DNA from: Candidatus Aminicenantes bacterium
Lineage (GTDB): Bacteria > Acidobacteriota > Aminicenantia > Aminicenantales > Aminicenantaceae
Reading direction: 5' to 3'
DNA: 64,000 nucleotides
Assembly: GCA_021162615.1 (NCBI GenBank)
Contig: JAGGYH010000100.1
Location: forward strand, 6,065 to 70,064
Below the pieces are notes generated by a model, which saw only the letters and a program-made list of their open reading frames with translations, ran no database searches and was not told the origin of the DNA. This document shows positions 1,314-44,231 of the stretch, one piece after another; position 1 is the stretch's first letter; the number at the start of each line of letters is the position of its first letter. A program made the translations under genes and the position numbers.

Positions 1314-2129
1314 ATGTCCGTACTGATGCAGAAACTCTTTGCCTTTCTCAAGCGTGATTTTCTGGAAGAAGCCAGCTACAAGTATTCATTTATCGCTTCT
1401 TTTTTTGGTATTTTTCTGTCCTCCGCCACTTTTTTCTTTATTTCCAAATTAATATCTCCAAACAGCAGTTCAGTTCTAGCCCCTTACGGAGGTGATTACT
1501 TTTCTTTTGTGATCATAGGGATTGCTTTTTCAGGTTTGCTGGCTATTTTTCAGGAACGCCTCCCTGCTATCATAAGGCAGGCTCAGGTCACAGGGACCCT
1601 GGAAGCGATTTTGGTCTCACGAACGAGCATTCCCGTGATTCTGTTCGGTTCGTCACTTTATTATTTTCTTTACTCCATTGCATCGACTGTCTTTCACCTC
1701 ATTCTGGCCGTAGTGGTTTTCGGAATGCAGGTTGAAAAAATAAATTGGCTGGGCGCTGTCTTGACTTTTCTTTTGACTGCCTTGTGCTTTTTAAGCATAG
1801 GGATTTTATCAGCCTGTTTTATTCTTGTTTATAAGAAAGGGAATCCGTTTTCATGGATTTACGGCAGTGTTTCCGGATTATTGGGAGGCGTGTTTTTCCC
1901 CATAAAAGTGCTCCCTGTATGGATAAAATGGATATCCTATATACTTCCCATCACTTATTCGCTTGAAGGACTGCGGAAAAGCATCATCGTTACGTCGCCC
2001 TTTTCTGAGATCCTTCCCAATATTATTGCTTTGTCTGTTTTCACCGTTGTTTTTTTCCCCCTGAGTATTTATTTGTTCCGGCTGGCATTGAAGAAAGCCA
2101 AGAAAGATGGTACTCTTACCCATTACTAA
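1314..2129 (+). CDS. ABC-2 type transporter permease
   Basis: Multi-pass hydrophobic protein directly after the ATPase. ATG 1314 (MSVLMQKLF) is preferred over 1257, which overlaps the ATPase. The stop TAA 2127-2129 lies in the terminus of a repeat element. Confidence 0.8.
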   Translation: MSVLMQKLFAFLKRDFLEEASYKYSFIASFFGIFLSSATFFFISKLISPNSSSVLAPYGGDYFSFVIIGIAFSGLLAIFQERLPAIIRQAQVTGTLEAILVSRTSIPVILFGSSLYYFLYSIASTVFHLILAVVVFGMQVEKINWLGAVLTFLLTALCFLSIGILSACFILVYKKGNPFSWIYGSVSGLLGGVFFPIKVLPVWIKWISYILPITYSLEGLRKSIIVTSPFSEILPNIIALSVFTVVFFPLSIYLFRLALKKAKKDGTLTHY

Positions 2130-2392
2130 CCTGAATTATTCATAAAATATGTATGCATCCCTAAATAAATTTATCATGATAAATGCTTTTTACAAGATTA
2201 TCCTATAAAGAACATGATTCTGATTTTAATTCATGTTATGATTTTAATTTTAATGCATACATATTTTACCTTACAGGCGAGCCGATCTCACAGCATCTGC
2301 TTTGTTACAGGGCATTCGCGGTGAAGAACCACAGCTTCATACCCTGTGCCTCGCATTTGCAGCGACCTCGACTCGTGAATAATCCAGGTTAA
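2127..2392 (+). mobile_element. Family-1 miniature inverted-repeat element, full copy A with GC-rich core (core 2274-2372)
   Basis: Left end TAACCTGAATTATTCATAAAA, right end CGACTCGTGAATAATCCAGGTTAA. The core is near-identical to copies at 11513, 38006, 42667 and 50417, but the AT-rich arm differs from copies B/C/D. Confidence 0.8.
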
Positions 2393-2396
2393 TAAG

Positions 2397-3005
2397 ATGA
2401 AAATCAGACTTCAGATTTTAAACGCCATTCGTTTTCGGTTTGAAAAGGGAATGGTGGTTTTTTGTTTGATTTTTGCGGTTTTTTTCTCACAGGCTGATGC
2501 CGCTCAGACAGGTTATTCGCTTGATGAAGCGATGAAGGTGCTGGGGCTGATTGAGAAAGTCAATTCAGAGAGTGAAGAGGATTATTCAGGCCCTTTACGC
2601 CAGGTAGTGGTTGCAGAAAGCGAACTCAATTCCTATTTAGCATTCAGACTCGAGCAGGAAGAAGATGTGTTAAAGGAACTGAGATTGAAATTGTTCGATG
2701 CGAACAGGATAGAGGGGAAAATACTGCTTCGGTTTAAGAAAACAGGCCTTTCTTTAATGCTTGAACCTGAAATGATTTTTTATTTTAGCGGAACAATCAA
2801 GGTCAAAGAAGAGGCAGCTCGTCTGGCGATCGATGAGCTTTTCCTGAATAAGGAACGGGTTGATCCTCTGCTGCTGGATACAGTGATTTATCTGGCGTCA
2901 AAGCTCCAGGGAACAGAATACACAGGATTGAGCAATTGGTATGAACTTCCCTATGGTCTCAAAGATGTGCGAATAGAAAAAGGGAGGGCTGTGTTTTTCT
3001 ATTAA
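2397..3005 (+). CDS. hypothetical exported protein
   Basis: 202-aa ORF with an N-terminal hydrophobic signal-like segment (VVFCLIFAVFFSQADA). No family recognised. Confidence 0.55.
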   Translation: MKIRLQILNAIRFRFEKGMVVFCLIFAVFFSQADAAQTGYSLDEAMKVLGLIEKVNSESEEDYSGPLRQVVVAESELNSYLAFRLEQEEDVLKELRLKLFDANRIEGKILLRFKKTGLSLMLEPEMIFYFSGTIKVKEEAARLAIDELFLNKERVDPLLLDTVIYLASKLQGTEYTGLSNWYELPYGLKDVRIEKGRAVFFY

Positions 3006-3086
3006 AATTGGATTATTCATAAAAAAATGGACATAAAAATCAGATATGGCTTGTACAAACATCGTTTTGTGAACATGCCAGTTTAA
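3002..3086 (+). mobile_element. Family-1 element, empty mini copy (two termini only)
   Basis: TTAAAATTGGATTATTCATAAAAAAATGG ... CGTTTTGTGAACATGCCAGTTTAA aligns with the canonical left and right termini. It starts on the stop codon of the upstream ORF. Confidence 0.6.
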
Positions 3087-5892: not shown

Positions 5893-5950
5893 TTGGAAGT
5901 GACATCTTTAATATCGCTTCATCCGCACCTGAATTTGTAAAAAAGAGAGA

Positions 5951-11512: not shown

Positions 11513-11773
11513 TTAACCTGACCTATTCATAAAAAAATGGCGATGAGCAATTTTTTGTTTTGCTTTCAAGGATATGCATACTTTTTAAAAAAATGACAAC
11601 TGAAATATCTTTGCCTGTTTTCACTTTCATTTTAATCGCCATTTTTTTACCTTTCAGGCAAGCCGATCTCACTGCATCTGCTTCGTTACAGGGTACTCGT
11701 GGTGAAGTACCACAGCTTCGCACCCTGTGCCTCGCATCTGCAGCAACCTCGACTTGTGAATAATCCAGGTTAA
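11513..11773 (+). mobile_element. Family-1 element, full copy B (core 11655-11753)
   Basis: TTAACCTGACCTATTCATAAAAAAATGGCGAT ... CGACTTGTGAATAATCCAGGTTAA, flanked by TTAA on both sides. Confidence 0.85.
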
Positions 11774-14664: not shown

Positions 14665-14691
14665 TTAATCTGTATTATTCATAAATAACGG
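14665..14691 (+). repeat. solo Family-1 left terminus
   Basis: TTAATCTGTATTATTCATAAATAACGG resembles TTAACCTGACCTATTCATAAAAAAATGG. Confidence 0.5.
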
Positions 14692-14778
14692 CTATGGTTT
14701 CATAAAATACATGAAAAAGAACAAATCATTATAATATCTTACGAATGGCTTCACAATATTTTTTTTGCTAAATCATCC

Positions 14779-15010
14779 GGGGACGTCCCATTAGGTACCA
14801 CTCTATAAAATCCCGCTTGTTTGCACGGCTTACTACCAGAATGAGATCTTCACTTGTCCTGCATCGTTGGTACATACTCATAGAGGAACTTTCTTCTTCA
14901 GGATGGCGGTAGTGTATTAAATAGAAATAGTTCAGAGGGGGACAATCTGGAATATTTTTTAATATCCAGCGGATTCAGTAATATAGGGTGGTACCTTATG
15001 GAGCGTCCCC
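14779..15010 (+). mobile_element. Family-2 palindromic element, copy 1 (~28-bp terminal inverted repeats around GGTACC)
   Basis: GGGGACGTCCCATTAGGTACCACTCTATA ... TATAGGGTGGTACCTTATGGAGCGTCCCC. About 80 percent identical by eye over its full length to 32019-32246. Confidence 0.75.
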
Positions 15011-15064
15011 CATAAGAAGAAAGGTTTACTGTTTCCCGGTTTTTTGATATATTCGTTTCAAATA

Positions 15065-19674: not shown

Positions 19675-19692
19675 GGCTTGTGAATGAATCGG
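19675..19692 (+). repeat. solo Family-1 right-terminus-like sequence
   Basis: GGCTTGTGAATGAATCGG resembles CGACTTGTGAATAATCCAGG. The preceding AAAATCAGGTGTGGCTTGT also resembles 3038-3056. Confidence 0.35.
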
Positions 19693-19778
19693 AATCAAAT
19701 TTATGCATCAAAAGGCACAATCTTCAAGGCCGCTCAAACCGAGCCCGAATTAAATGAAATAAAAAAGGAACAGAAAAA

Positions 19779-24200: not shown

Positions 24201-24415
24201 TTGAAAGGTTGAGCGCATTATTCCAGTCTATAGATAGCGTTAACAAAGCGCCGACCAGGGCTCAACAATCCTATTTCAGTGAATTGAAACAGGAATTTGA
24301 AGCTGCGATGATTCAAATCAACGCGTATCTGGGTGAGAGGGCAAAACTGATCAACAGAATTTTTTCAGAAAATAATGTTCCCACCCTGCTTATTCCTTCT
24401 GCCATTGAGTATTAG
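21200..24415 (+). CDS. secreted BNR/Asp-box repeat protein, sortilin/VPS10-like (paralog 2)
   Basis: Same architecture and colinear motifs as 16470-19658 (TTNGGTTW, STDGGHTW, SRDGGKSW ...). Its start overlaps the stop of the oxidase gene. Confidence 0.8.
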   Translation: MRFFMDRTDEPGREEMRNLRMYLLFFLVFFIIMGVISALSFGTAMDPVSVDDVELDSALFKNLSWRNIGPANMVGRISDVEGVPGDPNIVYVGSASGGVWKTTNGGTTWTPIFDGQPVASIGDIALEPGNPDVVYVGTGESNVRNSVSFGNGVYKSTDGGHTWNYLGLKDTEHISRIVINPNNTDVVYVGALGRAFGPNAGRGVFVSRDGGKSWEKTLYKDEWHGISDMDINQKNPNILFAGLWRFVRRPWTFESGDKGGGVFRSVDGGRTWSKVTEGLPELIGRIGIKIAPSNPDVVYAMTESPEGTLYRSDDGGKSFRRVSEDKQIVSRGFYYTDLRVDPVDENRVYAVSSRLHVSIDGGKTFRRISSSTHVDFHALWIDPENPGRMWQGQDGGIAVSYDRGANWDYVNNICAAQFYQIYADNREPFYYVGGGLQDNGVWYGPSRNKETFGILKADWRMISFGDGFHVTCHPDNPDLFISERQGGGIVRTDMNTREQQDVSPQPRRADGAPVSELEYRFNWNTPIIPSPHDKKTIYVGSNVVFKSLDFGSTWEVISPDLTTDDPEKQKAAGGPAWPENTTAEYYCTIISLAESPVQPGVIWAGTDDGQLHVTMNGGNEWENVVNSIPDLPSYTPVSHVEPSLTSAGMAYATFDRHMLDDFSPYVYRTSDFGRTWVDITGNLPDNAYVWVVREDPVRPQIIYAGTELGLFVSFSRGTYWVKFHMKNLPTVAVHDILLHPRDKDLILGTHGRGIWIFDDVSFIRGIYKELLEKEAHLFRIRTAIRYAEKATRYGIGDREYTGENPPYGALLTYYLKDRIDDSKDLRIDIYDKDKKLIRRITGLPSEKGINRAVWDLRETAPRQRIEIEQEENFFSRGPRGPLVLPGIYTVRLVLKGQAYKEELTVEADPTVEVSHDDLELQHKYASDLCSMQSCVNDGLRAFDTLLEQLKERKNTILKQTNKFSEEVMDAIDSHIQEIMQIQDLLTKPEGAPFWTEGPRLIERLSALFQSIDSVNKAPTRAQQSYFSELKQEFEAAMIQINAYLGERAKLINRIFSENNVPTLLIPSAIEY

Positions 24416-24477
24416 CCTGACATATTTACAAACAATAACTGAAACAGCATTCTCGACTTGTGAATAATCCAGGTTAA
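24412..24477 (+). mobile_element. Family-1 element, empty mini copy
   Basis: TTAGCCTGACATATTTACAAA ... CTCGACTTGTGAATAATCCAGGTTAA. The stop TAG 24413-24415 of the upstream gene lies in its left terminus. Confidence 0.65.
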
Positions 24478-29484: not shown

Positions 29485-29706
29485 TAATCCTGGTAATTCA
29501 TAAAATATGGTTGCGTTTCCAACACATTTACCATGATCGGCTCTCTTATCATTACTCCACCCGTCCGTGGGTCAAACATACTCACAGCTCGGCTTTGCCG
29601 AGTTCCCTCAAACACAGCACTCCGAAGGCTAAATCTTCAATGTCGCCACGACCACACCTGAATTTCAGTATGCCTTCTTCAAGCTCGACTCGTGAATAAC
29701 CAGGAT
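29485..29706 (+). mobile_element. Family-1 termini with a different internal cargo
   Basis: TAATCCTGGTAATTCATAAAATATGG ... CAAGCTCGACTCGTGAATAACCAGGATT. The interior is unrelated to the GC-rich core and contains hairpins such as CTCGGC-TTT-GCCGAG. Confidence 0.6.
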
Positions 29707-29805: not shown

Positions 29806-30081
29806 GGACCGTGCTAGATGGGGAGTTAGCGGTGCCCTGTAACTCACAATCCGCTAAAGTGAGGTTGAATTCCCTGCTGAGGCAGCCAGCTTTTTCTGGC
29901 CGGTACTTATGTAAGTGGTGTTGAAGGTATGGGCCCTGTGCAAAGTGCACTTTGTAAACCCCGTCAGGACCGGGAGGTAGCAGCGGTAGCAGAGTTGCTT
30001 CTTGTGCTGCAGGTTCGCCTTGCCAGAGCTAACTGCATAGGATACGCAGGGGAAGTTATGTCAAAGCCGGGTGCACGGTCC
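29806..30081 (+). ncRNA. ffs: signal recognition particle RNA, long Bacillus-type (with Alu domain)
   Basis: 5' GGACCGTGC pairs with 3' GCACGGTCC. Blocks recalled from B. subtilis scRNA are present: GGGGAGTTAGCGGTGCCCTGTA, CAATCCGCT, AAGTGGTGTTGA, GTCAGGACCGGGAGGTAGCAGC (domain IV), GAGCTAACTGC. A T7 run follows. About 276 nt. Confidence 0.9.
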
Positions 30082-32018: not shown

Positions 32019-32246
32019 GGGGACATCCCATTAGGTACCACCCTATAGAATCCCACTTATGTACGCGGCTTACTGCCAGAATGCGATCTTCCCTTGCCCT
32101 GCCTCGTTGGAATCCACTCATATAGGGACTTTGCAGGATTACGGTGGTGTATTAAATGCAAACAGCTCGAAGGGAGAAAATCTGAAATATTTTTTAATAT
32201 CCAATGGATTCAGTAATATAGGGTGGTACCTAATAGAGCGTCCCCC
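32019..32246 (+). mobile_element. Family-2 palindromic element, copy 2
   Basis: GGGGACATCCCATTAGGTACCACCCTATA ... TATAGGGTGGTACCTAATAGAGCGTCCCC. Same orientation as copy 1. Confidence 0.75.
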
Positions 32247-32259
32247 ATTTATTTAACAT

Positions 32260-33720: not shown

Positions 33721-33870
33721 AACCTGAATCATTCACAAGTCGAGGTTACTGTGTTATTGCAAACGGCCGCAAGGGAGTGCGGCAATCTCATTGTGACAAG
33801 GGAGCATCATGAGATAACCACGTCGCTGCGCTCCTCATGATGGTGTTGTGTTAGAACCTTGAAACCAAGT
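33721..33870 (-). mobile_element. Family-1 right terminus (reverse orientation) followed by a third, hairpin-rich cargo; far boundary uncertain
   Basis: AACCTGAATCATTCACAAGTCGAGG, then CCGCAAGGGAGTGCGG and CATCATGAG..(17 nt)..CTCATGATG hairpins. It begins 21 nt after tRNA-Ser. Confidence 0.5.
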
Positions 33871-34822: not shown

Positions 34823-34918
34823 TTTGGTTCATGATTATAACACAGTTTGAAGCCTGAAGAAAAAGATGGTGGCTGAGAGTTAAGGCTTTATACCTTTATG
34901 TTTTATAAGGGGGAGAGC

Positions 34919-34943
34919 TTTTTTTATGAGTAGGTCAGGTTAA
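34919..34943 (-). repeat. Family-1 left terminus (reverse); may close a ~115-bp element starting near 34829
   Basis: TTTTTTATGAGTAGGTCAGGTTAA. The stop codon (34940-34942) of the DUF2061-like gene lies in the TTAA. Confidence 0.5.
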
Positions 34944-35339: not shown

Positions 35340-35367
35340 GAATCATCCTTTAACATGACTTATTCAT
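35340..35367 (+). repeat. solo Family-1 left terminus upstream of tRNA-Ser(GCU)
   Basis: TTAACATGACTTATTCATAAAAAAATGG. Confidence 0.55.
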
Positions 35368-35406
35368 AAAAAAATGGTAGAATATTTTGGCGTTTATGGA
35401 ACAAAC

Positions 35407-37956: not shown

Positions 37957-38005
37957 GAATATCGAGTTTATTTTGAATTTTCGGGCGGGCATGGATTCTT
38001 GTTTT

Positions 38006-38259
38006 ACCTGGATTATTCACAAGTCGAGGTTGCTGCAGATGCGAGGCACAGGGTGCGAAGCTGTGGTCCTTCACCGCGAGTGCCCTGTAACAAAGCAGAT
38101 GCAGTGAGATCGGCTTGCCTGTAAGGTAAAAAAATGGCGATTAAAATGAAAGTAAAAACAAACAAAAATATTTCAGTTGTCATTTTTTTTAAAAGTATGC
38201 ATATCCTTGATATCAAAACAAAAAAAGTAACATCGCCATTTTTTTATGAATAGGTCAGG
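38006..38259 (-). mobile_element. Family-1 element, full copy C (core 38023-38121), reverse orientation
   Basis: ACCTGGATTATTCACAAGTCGAGG ... CGCCATTTTTTTATGAATAGGTCAGGT. Confidence 0.85.
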
Positions 38260-38306
38260 TTTTAAGGACAGATTCCATTTGTAATTTTATATTGAGGGAC
38301 TGAGAC

Positions 38307-40528: not shown

Positions 40529-42466
40529 TCACATTCTCTCAGGTTGAGGGATTCCCATCAAATCCAGAGCTTTTTTTATGATTTTATATATGTAAGAGAT
40601 GGTGAGGATCCTTGCATTTCTCAGGAGCTCGTTTTCTTCCTGGATAATAGAGTATTTATGGTAGTAAGCATTGAATTTCTGGCAGAGGTTGAACGTGAAT
40701 TTAGCCAGGTGCAGGAATTCAAGAGTATCGATGGAATGAAGTACTTCTTCATCCAGTTTAGAGGCATAGAGAACAAGTTCCCAGAAGTCGTCAAGTTCTT
40801 CATCGGGCATGCTGTCAAGGGATAATTTTTGAGCTGATATTTTGGATATTATCTCTTCTTTTGTTATGTTTTTCGTGTTCTTGAGCTTGCTGAATATACT
40901 GTTTATCCGGACCAAAGTGTACTGCAGGTAAGGACCTGTTTCCCCCTCAAAGCTAAGCACATCTTCAAAATCAAAAATGATAAGAGAATTTCTCGCGAAT
41001 TTCAGCATAAAATATCTCAGCGCCCCGCAGGCAATGTTTTTTGCTGTCTCGGATTTCTTTTTGTCAGACCATTCCGGATTTCTTTTATTGACTTCATTGA
41101 AGGCTTTTTGGTTGAGCCTGTCTATGAGGTCATCTGCTTTGATTCCAAGTCCTTTTCTTCCAGAGACTTCAAGAAAACCTTTATTTTTTTCATCTTCTGT
41201 GACTTTATACCCCAGTTCTTTCAAACTGTTTGAGGAAAGGGCCACCATTTCATATGAAAAATGGATAGATTTTTCTGCCTGCCTTAAAAATTTTAAGGAT
41301 TTCAGCCCCTGAGCCACGACTTTTTGAGGATAAGACTGGCGGATGTCTATGACGTTATAGACACTGCTGGCATTTCCGAAATCAACTGTATGAGAAGTTT
41401 TTACAGAAGAGGTGATCCATACGGTTTTATTGTTTTGCTTGATAAAGGGGATGAAGAAAAAATCTTTTTGAAGCAGGCCGAATTTCCAGAGCTGGTATGC
41501 GATGTCTTTCCCCACATAGGTAACGGTTCCGTTTGAGCGGACCAGTATTTTTTCCTGATCCGTTTTCCCCTTGAGCTTCATGACCCAGCATCCCTTATGT
41601 TTTCCCTTGTCAACAAAATAAGCGGCTTTTTTTGCCTTCAGAAGATTGAAAGCGCTTTCCCAGAATTTAAGTTTGATGATGTCGCTTTCACAGACCTGAA
41701 GGTCATAGGTGATCCCAAGCCTTTGCATGGTACGAAGGTGGTCTTTAAGTATCCGTCTTGAAATGTAAAGGGCGATATCACTTTCAGGATGTTTCCCATC
41801 CTCTATGTTTTTTAATATTTCTGATTTTCTTTCTTCAGCCTCAGGATTATTTTGAAGAAACTGGGTTGTTTTTGTGTACAAGTCCCAGCAGTAGTAGTCG
41901 AATTTTCCTTTTATTTTTTTTATTTCTTCCAAGGTCTTTTTTTCGACTTCTAAAAAACCAAACACTACGTCAGCGACCTGGACTCCTGTGTCATCGATAT
42001 AGTTCTGGATTTCGACTTTTTCTCCCTTGTATTTCTGGCAGCGTGCCAGTGTGTCCCCGAGACATGAATTTCTCAGATGACCGATATGGGCTGCTTTATT
42101 GGGATTTATGGATGTGTGTTCGACAATGACTTTTGATTCATCGGCAGAGAGAGACGACTCATCAGCAGTCTTAAGCCTTTTTAAAAAATAGGCTTTCCGG
42201 TTTATGAAGAGATTTATATAACCCCCTCCAGCCACATCAACTCTTTTTATGATATTCAGGGATGAAAGGAGGGGAGATGTTTCTTCCGCAATTATTCGGG
42301 GATTTTTTTTCAGTTTCTTTGCCAGCCTGAACGGAAATGAAAGAGCAAGGTCGCCCATTTTTATGTCCGGAGTGTAAGATAATTCCAGTTCATCTATTTG
42401 GATGGGATATTTTTGCTTAAGTATCCGGTATATGCTTTTTTTTAATTCTGTCTTTAATGCGATCAT
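40529..42466 (-). CDS. argS: arginine--tRNA ligase
   Basis: HIGH-type NPNKAAHIGHLRN, DALR anticodon-binding C-terminus, ~645 aa. ATG 42466 (MIALKTELKK) is preferred over the TTG at 42541. Confidence 0.9.
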   Translation of the reverse strand: MIALKTELKKSIYRILKQKYPIQIDELELSYTPDIKMGDLALSFPFRLAKKLKKNPRIIAEETSPLLSSLNIIKRVDVAGGGYINLFINRKAYFLKRLKTADESSLSADESKVIVEHTSINPNKAAHIGHLRNSCLGDTLARCQKYKGEKVEIQNYIDDTGVQVADVVFGFLEVEKKTLEEIKKIKGKFDYYCWDLYTKTTQFLQNNPEAEERKSEILKNIEDGKHPESDIALYISRRILKDHLRTMQRLGITYDLQVCESDIIKLKFWESAFNLLKAKKAAYFVDKGKHKGCWVMKLKGKTDQEKILVRSNGTVTYVGKDIAYQLWKFGLLQKDFFFIPFIKQNNKTVWITSSVKTSHTVDFGNASSVYNVIDIRQSYPQKVVAQGLKSLKFLRQAEKSIHFSYEMVALSSNSLKELGYKVTEDEKNKGFLEVSGRKGLGIKADDLIDRLNQKAFNEVNKRNPEWSDKKKSETAKNIACGALRYFMLKFARNSLIIFDFEDVLSFEGETGPYLQYTLVRINSIFSKLKNTKNITKEEIISKISAQKLSLDSMPDEELDDFWELVLYASKLDEEVLHSIDTLEFLHLAKFTFNLCQKFNAYYHKYSIIQEENELLRNARILTISYIYKIIKKALDLMGIPQPERM

Positions 42467-42666
42467 TGTTCTTTTTTTTCGCATCATTATAACACATATC
42501 CGGATTAATTCACGAGCTAATGTCAGATCTTGTGCTCTCAACTTTCGTCATGCAAGCTGGTCCTTCAGCCCGCTGATTTTCACCGTCGAGTAAAAGCAGC
42601 CGAGAGATAGCAAATTTTCTTGCATAACCCTGTGTTATATGGTAGTTAATAATTTCATATTAATCA

Positions 42667-42927
42667 TTAACCTTGATTATTCACAAGTCGAGGTTGCTGC
42701 AGATGCGAGGCACAGGGTGCGAAGCTGTGGTCCTTCACCGCGAGTACCCTGTAACGAAGCAGATGCAGTGAGATCGGCTTGCCTGAAAGGTAAAAAAATG
42801 GCGATTAAAATGAAAGTGAAAACAGGCAAAGATATTTCAGTTGTCATTTTTGTAAAAAGTATGCATATCCTTGAAATCAAAACAAAAAATTGCTCATCGC
42901 CATTTTTTTATGAATAGGTCAGGTTAA
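42667..42927 (-). mobile_element. Family-1 element, full copy D (core 42687-42785), reverse orientation
   Basis: TTAACCTTGATTATTCACAAGTCGAGG ... CGCCATTTTTTTATGAATAGGTCAGGTTAA, flanked by TTAA on both sides. Confidence 0.85.
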
Positions 42928-42989: not shown

Positions 42990-44081
42990 ATGAAAAAAAC
43001 AAGGCTTTATAAGAATCATAAGGATATGGGAGCAAAAATGGTCGAGTTTTTCGGTTGGGAAATGCCTGTGGAGTATTCAGGCATTAGGGAGGAACACCTT
43101 GCCGTTAGGGAACAGGCCGGCCTGTTCGATGTGAGCCATATGGGAGAGATCATTGTTTCCGGACCCCAAGCCCTTGATTATGTTCAATTTTTAACTCCCA
43201 ACGATGCCTCCCGGCTGGATACTCAAAAAGCACAGTATTCAGCACTGACCACCCCGAAAGGGACTTTTGTTGATGATATGCTGGTCTATAAACTTGAGGA
43301 TACAGAATATCTGCTGGTTGTCAACGCAGCAAATACGGATAAAGACTATGAGTGGGTCCTGAGCCATAAAAGCGGTTTTAATGTGGAAGTGGAAAATGTG
43401 AGTGATCAGTACACACAGCTTGCTTTACAGGGACCAAAGGCTCTAGACATTCTGAAATCCCTTACAGACATCGAACTGGAGGATATGAAGCCGTTTCGAG
43501 TCAGACGGGGCCGAGTGTGCGGGGAGGACTCCCTTGTTTCCCGCACCGGATATACGGGAGAGGACGGATTTGAGATCTATACTCTTTCGCCGAGACCGGA
43601 GAAGATATGGGAATCCATATTTGAGAAGGGGAAAAAATTCGGGGTAAAGCCTATCGGATTGGGTGCAAGAGATACTCTTCGCCTGGAAGCGTGTCTTATG
43701 CTCTACGGTAATGATATAGATGATACCACGACTGTCCTCGAGGCGGGATTGGGATGGCTTATCAAATTCAAAAAAGGAGATTTTATGGGAAGGGATCGCC
43801 TTCTCAGTCAGAAAGAGGAAGGAGTAAAGAGAAGAATCGCAGGGTTCGAGATGCTGGGAAGAGGAATTGCCAGGCATGGCTATCCAGTTTTCATTGGAGA
43901 GAAAGAGGTTTCAAAAGTAACATCAGGTACTTTTTCCCCTTATTTAAAAAAAAGCATAGGCCTGACCTATCTTCCTATCCAATATTTGGGACCAGGGACT
44001 CAGATCGCCATTGGAATCAGGGATAAGAAGGTGGAAGCCGAAATAGTCAAAATACCCTTTTATTCCAGGAAAAAGGAATAA
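42990..44081 (+). CDS. gcvT: glycine cleavage system aminomethyltransferase T
   Basis: 363 aa with FDVSHMGE and SRTGYTGEDGFEI motifs. Confidence 0.95.
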   Translation: MKKTRLYKNHKDMGAKMVEFFGWEMPVEYSGIREEHLAVREQAGLFDVSHMGEIIVSGPQALDYVQFLTPNDASRLDTQKAQYSALTTPKGTFVDDMLVYKLEDTEYLLVVNAANTDKDYEWVLSHKSGFNVEVENVSDQYTQLALQGPKALDILKSLTDIELEDMKPFRVRRGRVCGEDSLVSRTGYTGEDGFEIYTLSPRPEKIWESIFEKGKKFGVKPIGLGARDTLRLEACLMLYGNDIDDTTTVLEAGLGWLIKFKKGDFMGRDRLLSQKEEGVKRRIAGFEMLGRGIARHGYPVFIGEKEVSKVTSGTFSPYLKKSIGLTYLPIQYLGPGTQIAIGIRDKKVEAEIVKIPFYSRKKE

Positions 44082-44129
44082 TCCGGCTTATTCACAAGCC
44101 GCCGTTTTTTTATGGATAGGTCAGGATAA
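44079..44129 (-). mobile_element. Family-1 element, ~50-bp empty mini copy abutting the gcvT stop
   Basis: TAATCCGGCTTATTCACAAGCCG + CCGTTTTTTTATGGATAGGTCAGGATAA is just the two termini back to back. Confidence 0.6.
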
Positions 44130-44231
44130 TCAGTGAAATGCAAAAAAACGGGTTTTACGTTAAACTTTAAACAATTTAAGTTATAATAAATAAAAGTAAT
44201 GATAAATATACCTTAAGAAAAGGAGGTTATA

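What the first reader, a model, noticed from the sequence alone, without database searches (positions are those of the whole stretch)
2127..2392. Very dense family of miniature inverted-repeat elements occupying most intergenic spacers
One imperfect ~20-nt terminal inverted repeat recurs at least 14 times in 64 kb, always intergenic. One end reads TTAACCTGAcCTATTCATAAAAAAATGG and the other reads CGACTTGTGAATAATCCAGGTTAA, so both read inward as TTAACCTGnnnTATTCAyAA.
- Full ~255-265-bp copies: 2127-2392, 11513-11773, 38006-38259 (rev), 42667-42927 (rev), 50417-50657.
- Empty 50-85-bp copies made of only the two termini: 3002-3086, 24412-24477, 44079-44129 (rev).
- Copies with the same termini but unrelated interiors: 29485-29706, 33721-~33870 (rev), possibly 34829-34943 (rev).
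- Solo termini: 14665-14691, 19675-19692, 35340-35367, perhaps 5926-5946.
Flanks are mostly TTAA/TA (11513, 42667), which suggests TA- or TTAA-targeted insertion. No transposase lies in the window, so mobilisation would have to act in trans. A density of roughly one per 4-5 kb with modular cargo is unusual for a bacterial MITE.
Basis: seen in the sequence. Interest (0 to 1): 0.7.

Follow-up and report, generated by a model that had tools for sequence, protein, structure and literature searches.

The report
IS1380-type miniature transposons with folded core
The repeated intergenic sequence is a real family of small, non-autonomous transposons in an uncultured Aminicenantes bacterium; they use the end sequences of IS1380-family (piggyBac-related) insertion sequences, often insert exactly at stop codons, and carry a conserved folded RNA-like module of unknown function.

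Summary
The terminal motif occurs 18 times in the window (≤3 mismatches) against 0.49 expected, and every match is intergenic.

The interpretation as a MITE family is supported and can be sharpened.
- **Ends:** the element ends are CCTG…CAGG. The flanking TTAA is the target-site duplication, 4 bp (TTAA, TTAG, CTAA) or sometimes 5 bp.
- **Empty sites:** two orthologous empty sites in close relatives show clean insertions. Two syntenic relatives have no copies in 18-21 kb where the window has nine termini.
- **Source family:** full-length insertion sequences in other phyla have the same termini and TTAA/CTAA duplications. They encode an IS1380-family DDE transposase.
- **Missing partner:** no partner transposase was found in the window or in any Aminicenantes DNA sampled.

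New here: the 250-260 bp form carries a conserved ~120-nt hairpin plus two further stems. These are kept by compensatory changes (96% paired in 72 non-redundant copies) and are readable on one strand only (418 G·U against 52 A·C). Orientation is biased relative to neighbouring genes. About a fifth of gene 3' ends next to an element abut it exactly. What the fold does (transcript-end or insulating domain, outward promoter, or small RNA) is inferred, not shown.

Verdict: a new member of a known kind, with an unusual structured cargo.

The parts
2130..2388 (-). Full element (259 bp). L end is at 2130 and R end at 2388. Flanks are CTAA (2126-2129, contains the stop of the ABC-2 gene) and TTAA (2389-2392). 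Strand given is the strand on which the fold reads (R->L).
3007..3082 (-). Short, decayed copy made of two diverged termini (ATTGGATTATTCAT ... GTGAACATGCCAGT). It sits next to the stop codon at 3003-3005.
11517..11769 (-). Full element (253 bp) with a TTAA duplication on both sides (11513-11516 and 11770-11773). The L end faces the start of the GGDEF/PilZ gene and the R end faces tRNA-Arg.
14669..14692 (.). Solo L-type terminus (TCTGTATTATTCATAAATAACGGC), 21 nt from the start of the transketolase-like gene.
24416..24473 (-). Internal-deletion copy (58 bp): the L terminus plus the last ~33 nt of the R side. Flanks are TTAG (stop codon of the 1071-aa BNR protein) and TTAA.
29489..29704 (-). Second subfamily (216 bp). 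It has the same L and R termini and R subterminal CTCGACTCGTGAATAA, but a different interior. That interior is repeated in other Aminicenantes contigs.
33723..33752 (+). R terminus plus subterminal remnant (CCTGAATCATTCACAAGTCGAGGTTACTG), just after tRNA-Ser. No matching L end could be recognised.
34895..34939 (+). L-end fragment (…GGGGGAGAGCTTTTTTTATGAGTAGGTCAGG). Its TTAA flank contains the stop codon of the DUF2061 gene. The sequence beyond it is host flank conserved in L116.
35354..35380 (.). Solo L-type terminus (CATGACTTATTCATAAAAAAATGG) between the DUF2061 gene start and tRNA-Ser.
38007..38259 (+). Full element (253 bp) with a 5-bp duplication TTTTA (38002-38006 and 38260-38264). It is absent from the orthologous spacer of L116, L117 and L118.
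42671..42923 (+). Full element (253 bp), 98% identical to the 11517 copy, with a TTAA duplication. Relatives have only a decayed R-type remnant at this spot.
44083..44125 (+). Minimal element (43 bp, two termini only) with a 5-bp duplication ATAAT (44078-44082 and 44126-44130) that contains the gcvT stop codon. The site is empty in L116 and L119.
50400..50657 (-). Old full-length copy with decayed termini (GGATATGGATAATTTATAAAA…) but an intact core. It is shared with L117 and L119. L116 keeps only one L-like repeat.
11638..11756 (-). Example of the conserved core: a ~120-nt irregular hairpin, closing stem GAGUCGAG/UCGGCUCG, next to the R terminus. The same module is at 2260-2375, 38020-38137, 42684-42802 and 50527-50645.
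11533..11650 (-). Example of the L-side stem: AAAAAAATGGCGAT pairs with ATCGCCATTTTTTT around a variable, AT-rich ~95-nt loop. The arm sequences differ between copies but stay complementary.

Best explanation
These are copies of a non-autonomous DNA transposon (MITE) family of an Aminicenantes bacterium.

**Transposition.**
- Each element ends in imperfect ~14-16-bp inverted repeats, CCTG(A/G)NNTATTCA(T/C)… .
- These match the termini of IS1380-family insertion sequences, the bacterial relatives of piggyBac.
- The elements are presumably cut and pasted in trans by such a DDE transposase into A/T-rich sites. Usually this is TTAA or TTAG/CTAA, duplicating 4 bp and sometimes 5 bp.
- The duplication contains TAA or TAG. 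An insertion exactly at a stop codon therefore regenerates the stop, which explains why so many copies abut gene ends.

**Anatomy.**
- The full 250-260-bp form is asymmetric, with an L end and an R end.
- On the R->L strand it folds into a closed three-way junction: the two termini pair, a ~120-nt core hairpin lies next to the R end, and an A-run/U-run-flanked stem encloses a variable AT-rich loop next to the L end.
- Shorter copies are internal-deletion derivatives. Solo termini are decayed remnants.

**Shown:** repeat family, termini, duplications, empty sites, matching IS1380 elements, the fold with its covariation and strand asymmetry, and the orientation bias.

**Inferred:**
- The cognate transposase is in the same genome or population.
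- The fold acts as RNA when the element is co-transcribed with its neighbours. It would be a self-contained transcript-end or insulating domain.
- A -10-like box in the loop may drive transcription out through the L end into the adjacent gene.
For: **Repeat family.** 18 termini against 0.49 expected. Five full copies align end to end.

**Clean insertions.**
- In the metE-DUF711 spacer the 253-bp element is flanked by TTTTA/TTTTA in the window. L116, L117 and L118 have a single TTTTA.
- In the gcvT-gcvH spacer a 43-bp element is flanked by ATAAT/ATAAT. L116 and L119 are empty.

**Variable load.** There are 0 termini in 21 kb (L116) and 18 kb (L117) of synteny, against 9 in the window.

**Flanks.** In 108 further elements, 40 have identical 4-bp flanks. 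TTAA accounts for 19, TTAG 7, TTAT 4 and CTAG 2.

**Repeat behaviour in assemblies.** Many motif matches lie at contig ends.

**Autonomous relatives.**
- L033 carries TTAA|CCTGATTAATTCATAAAC … 451-aa ORF … TTATGAATAATTCAGG|TTAA.
- That ORF matches NF033539, IS1380 family transposase, at 1.6e-107, and PF13701 at 3.5e-145.
- L022 has the same terminus followed by an IS1380 transposase.
- L241-L245 are further copies with the same termini, and L244 is flanked by CTAA/CTAA.

**Fold.**
- 72 non-redundant copies give a consensus energy of -63.2 kcal/mol on the R->L strand and -21.4 on the other.
- 96.4% of cells are paired. G·U outnumbers A·C by 418 to 52.
- For the core hairpin, 22 of 33 pairs show double changes. 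There are 189 double-change cells against 53.5 in shuffles (0 of 500 reach it). Slid partners are only 28-41% paired.

**Orientation.**
- Between tandem genes the folding strand equals the gene strand in 25 cases against 9 (p=0.009).
- Gene starts lie beyond the L end in 62 cases against 27 gene ends. Beyond the R end the counts are 43 against 47.

**Stop-codon abutment.** 14 of 64 adjacent gene 3' ends are at distance 0.
Against: - No IS1380 transposase, and no other transposase bounded by these termini, was found in the window or in about 1.6 Mb of sampled contigs. Most of that DNA is Aminicenantes. The exceptions are a decayed remnant in L238 and the elements in other phyla. Trans-mobilisation in this host is therefore unproven.
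- Only 40 of 108 elements have perfectly matching flanks.
- The non-coding R-side end of the Bacteroidales IS is not structured (z about +1), so the origin of the core is unexplained.
- No transcription data exist.
- No consistent sigma-70 promoter or canonical terminator was predicted. The L-side stem has a ~95-nt loop, too large for a classical terminator.
- The orientation statistics rest on crude ORF calls.
- At argS-gcvT a fresh copy sits exactly where relatives have a decayed remnant. This points to gene conversion or site re-use, which complicates simple insertion histories.
Confidence: 0.82

Rival explanations
1. The important object is the folded RNA, not the transposon. On this view the core is a functional non-coding RNA (a small RNA, or a portable cis-regulatory or terminator-promoter cassette). 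It has been spread by the transposon ends and is kept by the host after insertion. This overlaps with the best explanation rather than excluding it.
For: - Covariation is strong and the G·U asymmetry is strand-specific.
- Orientation is biased toward neighbouring genes.
- The core is absent from the autonomous IS ends tested.
- In the old copy at glyS-PilZ, which has decayed termini, the core is 77% identical between the window and L119. Four-fold degenerate sites of the adjacent glyS are only 46% identical and the loop 57%.
- Among the three orthologues of that copy, 5 pairs changed on both sides and 5 changed through G·U.
- A -10-like TAAAAT/TATAAT box follows the core-proximal arm in most copies.
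Against: - There is no Rfam match even at E≤10.
- There is no conserved single-stranded 'seed', and the apical loop varies.
- There is no room for a promoter inside the element upstream of the core.
- The old copy's core resembles the window's own active copies (89%) more than its orthologues (86% and 77%). Gene conversion between copies could therefore mimic conservation.
- Copies come and go between close relatives, which is not expected of an essential RNA.
Confidence: 0.3
2. The family is a MITE, but of another transposon family with a similar target: IS5 group (YTAR, 4 bp) or IS630/Tc1-mariner (TA).
For: The observed duplications TTAA, TTAG, CTAA and CTAG fit the YTAR target known for IS5 (own knowledge).
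Against: - The only transposase-bearing elements with these termini encode IS1380-family enzymes.
- The duplications are 4-5 bp, not 2 bp.
- Termini starting with CC and 4-5-bp duplications are the IS1380 family signature (own knowledge of ISfinder).
Confidence: 0.04
3. It is a host-encoded, non-mobile intergenic motif: a conserved operator, terminator or REP-like element inherited vertically at fixed positions.
For: - All copies are intergenic.
- The terminus contains a near-palindrome, TGAATnATTCA.
- One site (glyS-PilZ) is shared by three genomes.
Against: - Empty orthologous sites carry target duplications.
- Two close relatives have zero copies in synteny.
- Copies within the window are 93-98% identical.
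- Matches sit at contig ends.
- The same termini bound a transposase gene.
Confidence: 0.02
4. It derives from a single-strand transposon (IS200/IS605 palindrome-associated element). The core would then be a guide-RNA scaffold (omega RNA), or a bridge-RNA-like module of IS110.
For: A strand-specific fold next to one end of a mobile element is reminiscent of these systems (own knowledge).
Against: - The elements have terminal inverted repeats and target duplications, which IS200/IS605 and IS110 lack.
- No TnpA(Y1), TnpB or IS110 recombinase lies nearby in any locus examined.
- No match to the Rfam families for such RNAs was found.
Confidence: 0.02

Closest known systems
IS1380 family insertion sequences (e.g. 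IS1380, ISEcp1, IS942/IS1186; NCBIfam NF033539, Pfam PF13701)
   Same: The termini begin with CC. The target duplication is 4-5 bp. Full elements with the very same CCTGNNTTATTCATAA termini and TTAA/CTAA duplications encode this transposase.
   Different: The window elements have no transposase and are 43-260 bp long. The transposase-bearing relatives were found in Bacteroidota/Calditrichota-type contigs, not in Aminicenantes. Annotated plasmid-borne IS1380 transposases are only about 40% identical to them.
piggyBac transposons of eukaryotes
   Same: Both insert at TTAA and have termini starting with CC. IS1380 transposases are used as the prokaryotic outgroup of piggyBac (PMC10813416).
   Different: The host domain differs. 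The duplication here is relaxed (TTAG, CTAA and 5-bp A/T-rich sites also occur). Precise excision was not tested.
Correia elements (Neisseria) and ERIC/IRU elements (enterobacteria)
   Same: Both are dense intergenic MITEs with terminal inverted repeats. They are co-transcribed with neighbours, and their RNA hairpins affect mRNA processing or stability. Short and long forms coexist (review PMC2229807).
   Different: The sequences and source IS family are unrelated. Here the fold is a three-way junction with a 120-nt covarying core and clear strand asymmetry. Insertion is frequently exactly at stop codons. No functional data exist.
REP/BIME elements
   Same: Both are intergenic, structured, and often lie at gene 3' ends.
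   Different: REPs have no terminal inverted repeats or target duplications and are linked to RAYT tyrosine transposases (own knowledge). The elements here have both features.

Membership tests
MITE (miniature inverted-repeat transposable element) | Small (<~500 bp) and without a transposase gene | tested here: met
   The elements are 43-260 bp. No transposase homology was found in the window. Indels that are not multiples of three, together with compensatory changes, argue against coding.
MITE (miniature inverted-repeat transposable element) | Terminal inverted repeats | tested here: met
   CCTG(A/G)NNTATTCA(T/C) is present at both ends of all full copies and of 109 further elements.
MITE (miniature inverted-repeat transposable element) | Target-site duplication, confirmed against empty sites | tested here: met
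   TTTTA and ATAAT are duplicated in the window and single in the orthologous empty sites. 40 of 108 elements have identical 4-bp flanks, mostly TTAA or TTAG.
MITE (miniature inverted-repeat transposable element) | Multi-copy with presence/absence polymorphism between related genomes | tested here: met
   There are 18 termini in 64 kb. Syntenic L116 and L117 have 0 and L119 has 5.
MITE (miniature inverted-repeat transposable element) | An autonomous element with matching termini exists | tested here: met
   L033, L022 and L241-L245. All of these are in other lineages.
MITE (miniature inverted-repeat transposable element) | The autonomous partner is present in the same genome or lineage | tested here: inconclusive
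   None was found in about 1.6 Mb of sampled contigs, most of it Aminicenantes. There is only a decayed IS1380-like remnant in L238. Whole genomes could not be scanned.
IS1380 family (as source of the termini) | DDE transposase of the IS1380 type (NF033539 / PF13701) | tested here: met
   The 451-aa ORF bounded by the same termini scores 359.7 bits (cut-off 180) and 484 bits.
IS1380 family (as source of the termini) | Ends begin with CC, and direct repeats are 4-5 bp (ISfinder description, own knowledge) | tested here: met
   The ends are CCTG…CAGG. Duplications are 4 bp (TTAA and similar) or 5 bp (TTTTA, ATAAT).
IS630/Tc1-mariner-derived MITE | TA dinucleotide target duplication | tested here: not met
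   The duplications are 4-5 bp.
IS5-family-derived MITE | An IS5-type transposase and termini | tested here: not met
   The YTAR-like target is shared, but the transposase bounded by these termini is IS1380-type.
IS200/IS605 palindrome-associated element / omega-RNA scaffold | No terminal inverted repeats, no target duplication, subterminal hairpins, and a link to TnpA(Y1)/TnpB | tested here: not met
   Inverted repeats and duplications are present. No such genes were found nearby.
Any Rfam RNA family | Covariance-model match | tested here: not met
   Nothing was found at the gathering threshold for the window. Only noise (E 4-8) appeared in permissive mode on the element.

The most novel reading that the evidence does not exclude
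The transposon ends are a vehicle for a functional, strand-specific structured RNA. This would be a ~250-nt three-way junction with a 120-nt covarying core. The host retains it after the copy has lost its mobility, and it acts as a portable transcript-boundary module: it ends or insulates the upstream message and starts or permits the downstream one. It could alternatively act as a dispersed small-RNA gene family. That would make it a new class of bacterial non-coding RNA spread by a piggyBac-like cut-and-paste system.
Probability: 0.3. Interest if true: 0.7.

Novelty: new member of a known kind. Interest (0 to 1): 0.5.

Why it matters
- **Annotation.** The result explains much of the intergenic DNA of this Aminicenantes lineage. 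The elements break MAG assemblies and can be mistaken for regulatory motifs, so this gives a practical annotation rule: CCTG…CAGG with a TTAA-like duplication.
- **Transposon evolution.** A bacterial IS1380 subgroup shares TTAA-type targeting and CC termini with piggyBac. This makes the link between the two families more concrete.
- **Insertion tolerance.** Insertion exactly at stop codons, with the duplication restoring the stop, shows neatly how a transposon can saturate a compact genome without breaking genes.
- **Candidate RNA.** The covarying, strand-specific fold inside the element occurs in at least 150 copies and is absent from Rfam. If it acts on transcripts, these elements rewire operon boundaries differently in each strain.

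Tried and rejected
- **Rfam.** Scans of the window at gathering thresholds and of one element at E≤10 found no family for the core.
- **Search for the autonomous partner.**
  - tblastn with the L033 transposase against all 240+ loci found only L033, L022 and a decayed remnant in L238, 2.9 kb from its MITE.
  - A scan for inverted termini 0.9-3.5 kb apart found only host genes lying between two separate MITEs.
  - The protein search with the transposase returned mostly unnamed metagenome proteins and one Caldithrix entry, none from Aminicenantes.
- **Origin of the core.** I tested whether it is the non-coding R-side end of the parent IS. The 243-nt equivalent in L033 is unstructured and shows no homology.
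- **Promoter and terminator scans.** They gave nothing consistent across copies.
- **Coding potential.** The 81-92-aa ORFs that cross the elements were considered. They start outside the element, and indels and covariation speak against translation.
- **Orientation.** A first analysis on 28 copies showed no bias. The bias appeared only with about 100 distinct sites.
- **Synteny.** The window shares no synteny with the first 115 loci. Orthologous loci had to be fetched through GcvT homologues.
Full report
**1. The observation**

The motif TTAACCTGNNNTATTCAYAA matches 18 times in the window at ≤3 mismatches. Dinucleotide-preserving shuffles give a mean of 0.49 and never more than 3. The five long copies align over their whole length. 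A ~125-nt half next to one end is almost invariant, and the other half is variable.

The window is ordinary housekeeping chromosome. It carries aminoacyl-tRNA synthetases, glycine-cleavage genes, metE, three tRNAs and a large SRP RNA. Every terminus lies outside an ORF. GcvT homologues identify the host as Aminicenantes.

**2. It is a mobile element, with ends CCTG…CAGG**

I fetched syntenic loci from relatives through GcvT homologues: L116 (93% identical), L117/L118 (90%) and L119/L120 (81%).

- In the metE-DUF711 spacer the window has a 253-bp insertion. L116, L117 and L118 lack exactly this insertion. The window reads …GTTTTA|CCTGG…TCAGG|TTTTAAGG… and the empty sites read …TTTTAAGG…. The duplicated target is therefore TTTTA and the element starts at CCTG.
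- In the gcvT-gcvH spacer a 43-bp element made of two termini is flanked by ATAAT/ATAAT. This duplication contains the gcvT stop codon. L116 and L119 are empty.

In 109 further complete elements from public contigs the modal length is 250-259 bp. Of 108 with both flanks, 40 have identical 4-bp flanks: TTAA 19, TTAG 7, TTAT 4, CTAG 2.

The load differs sharply between close relatives. There are nine termini in window 33.0-54.5 kb, none in the syntenic 21 kb of L116 or 18 kb of L117, and five in L119.

Some sites have more complex histories.
- At argS-gcvT all four genomes carry a decayed R-type remnant at one spot. The window has a fresh copy there, 98% identical to the one at 11517. L119 has another fresh copy elsewhere in the same spacer.
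- At glyS-PilZ an old copy with decayed termini is shared by the window, L117 and L119.

**3. Which transposon family**

The hits came from Aminicenantes MAGs and also from Bacteroidota, KSB1, Calditrichota and others. Many lay within a few dozen bases of contig ends, as expected for a repeat that breaks assemblies. In these loci inverted pairs of termini lie 45-450 bp apart, so this is a superfamily of MITEs of many sizes.

One pair, 1698 bp apart in a Bacteroidales MAG (L033), encloses a 451-aa ORF. The element reads TTAA|CCTGATTAATTCATAAAC…TTATGAATAATTCAGG|TTAA. The protein is an IS1380-family transposase: NF033539 at 1.6e-107 and 359.7 bits against a cut-off of 180, and PF13701 at 3.5e-145.

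- L022 has the same terminus followed by a 42%-identical IS1380 transposase.
- Relatives of the L033 protein are abundant in metagenomes, mostly on 1.6-2.3-kb contigs.
- Five further copies (L241-L245) have the same two termini, and one has a clean CTAA duplication.
- Annotated plasmid-borne IS1380 transposases are about 40% identical.

Termini starting with CC and 4-5-bp duplications are the family's hallmarks (own knowledge of ISfinder). IS1380 is the bacterial outgroup of piggyBac, which targets TTAA (PMC10813416).

No transposase bounded by these termini was found in the window or in the Aminicenantes loci. Mobilisation in trans in this host is therefore inferred.

**4. Anatomy of the full element**

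Written L->R, the element consists of:
- the L terminus, CCTGACCTATTCAT;
- an A-run plus arm, AAAAAAATGGCGAT;
- a variable AT-rich loop of about 95 nt;
- the complementary arm plus T-run, ATCGCCATTTTTTT;
- a 3-4-bp mini-hairpin, CCTnnnAGG;
- the ~120-nt core;
- the R terminus, GTGAATAATCCAGG.

The arms differ between copies but stay complementary. Examples are TGTATGCAT/ATGCATACA, TGCCGAC/GTCGGCA and AGCTGACAA/TTGTCAGCT.

In the L033 IS the L-type end lies upstream of the transposase. It carries the same kind of A-run-stem-loop-stem-T-run just before the start codon. The L half of the MITE therefore probably descends from that end. The core has no counterpart in the IS. The 243-nt non-coding R side of L033 is unstructured (z +1.0 and +1.7) and is not hit by the core profile.

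**5. The fold is real and strand-specific**

A second scan, of metagenomes with a core pattern, added 120 loci and brought the total to 150 full cores.

In 72 copies less than 94% identical to each other:
- the consensus fold on the R->L strand has 60 pairs and -63.2 kcal/mol, against -21.4 on the other strand;
- 96.4% of cells are standard pairs;
- 25 pairs show two or more Watson-Crick types;
- G·U/U·G pairs number 418, against 52 A·C/C·A.

The last figure is the classical sign that this strand, not its complement, is the one that folds.

For the core hairpin alone (33 pairs), 22 pairs show double changes. There are 189 double-change cells against 53.5±5.3 in shuffles (0 of 500 reach it). 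Sliding the partners by 1-3 columns drops pairing to 28-41%.

A single copy folds at -92.2 kcal/mol (z -7.9) on this strand and -74.8 (z -5.4) on the other.

No Rfam family matches.

**6. Relation to genes**

The statistics below rest on 102 distinct insertion sites and crude but symmetric ORF calls.

- Elements between tandem genes have the folding strand in the gene sense 25 times against 9 (p=0.009).
- Beyond the L end lies a gene start 62 times and a gene end 27 times.
- Beyond the R end the counts are balanced, 43 against 47.
- Fourteen of 64 adjacent gene 3' ends are at distance 0. In those cases the stop codon is the last three bases of the duplication.
- In the window this holds at 2126, 3003, 24412, 34940 and 44079, where the stop lies inside the flanking duplication. 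The old copy at ~50400-50657 starts about 2 nt after the glyS stop.

A duplication that contains TAA or TAG restores the stop after insertion. This makes stop codons safe landing sites in short spacers. Whether they are also preferred targets cannot be told from these data.

In most copies a -10-like box (TAAAAT, TATAAT, TAGAGT and similar) directly follows the core-proximal arm on the folding strand. A promoter there would read out through the L end, which would fit the L-end bias. Generic scans found no consistent promoter or terminator, however.

**7. Selection after immobilisation?**

In the old glyS-PilZ copy, window against L119:
- the core is 77% identical;
- the arm plus mini-hairpin is 83% identical;
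- the loop is 57% identical;
- four-fold degenerate sites of the adjacent glyS are 46% identical.

Among the three orthologues 13 of 33 core pairs changed. Five changed on both sides, five changed through G·U, and three contain a non-pair.

This suggests that the fold is kept in place by selection. However, the window's old copy resembles the window's active copies (89%) more than its orthologues. Conversion between copies could therefore produce the same picture.

**8. Verdict**

The finding is a genuine MITE family. It is derived from, or at least uses the termini of, IS1380-family elements, and it has burst in this Aminicenantes lineage.

MITEs, their density, and their RNA hairpins that affect neighbouring messages are known from Correia and ERIC elements (PMC2229807). 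The finding is therefore a new member of a known kind.

Four features are unusual:
- the IS1380/piggyBac-type TTAA-like targeting;
- the frequent insertion at stop codons;
- the modular interiors, with a second interior family at 29489-29704 that is repeated elsewhere;
- above all the covarying, strand-specific three-way fold, whose function remains to be shown.

Noticed in passing
window 14776-15015 and 32019-32248; L231 10214-10449: A ~235-nt element is 83-87% identical between copies and lies directly upstream of gltX and of serS. It is closed by a ~22-bp stem (GGGGACGTCCCATTAGGTACCAC … GTGGTACCTTATGGAGCGTCCCC) and contains the T-box-like string GGGTGGTACC. There is no Rfam match, even at E≤1. 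It may be an unusual aminoacyl-tRNA-synthetase leader or another repeat family.
   Followed up: partly
window 5904-5936, 19720-19752, 29633-29665; many loci (e.g. L194, L216, L197, L147, L166): A separate ~50-nt repeat (…ATCTTCAATGTCGCCACGACCACACCTGAATTTCAGT…) forms part of the interior of the second MITE subfamily at 29489-29704. It also occurs on its own in other spacers.
   Followed up: partly
window 50393-50426, 50658-50691, 50700-50733: There are three direct copies of TCGTGGATATGGATAATTTATAAA around the old element and just upstream of a good TTGACT-N17-TATAAA promoter of the PilZ gene. The repeat is 93-97% conserved in relatives, including L116, which has lost the element. It may be an operator derived from a transposon terminus.
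   Followed up: partly
L116 ~2290-2360 and L119 ~1830-1900 (DAGK-DUF2061 spacer); absent from window 34823-34939: Relatives encode a conserved 20-codon ORF (MKLFMVPRVAHCSEGCLTRS in L116) followed by a terminator-like hairpin. In the window this stretch is replaced by the L-end fragment of the element.
   Followed up: no
window 29809-30078: A large (Bacillus-type, Alu-domain-containing) SRP RNA scores 169.7 bits. This form is not the common one in most Gram-negative phyla.
   Followed up: no
window 42466-42541: The longest argS ORF (670 aa, TTG start) is 25 codons longer than the 645-aa orthologues in L116, L117 and L119. The true start is probably near 42466, which lengthens the argS-gcvT spacer.
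   Followed up: no
L238 5066-5879: A decayed IS1380-like transposase remnant, with residues ~45-199 deleted, lies in a metagenome contig that also carries a core-bearing element. It is the only trace of this transposase family seen next to these elements.
   Followed up: partly
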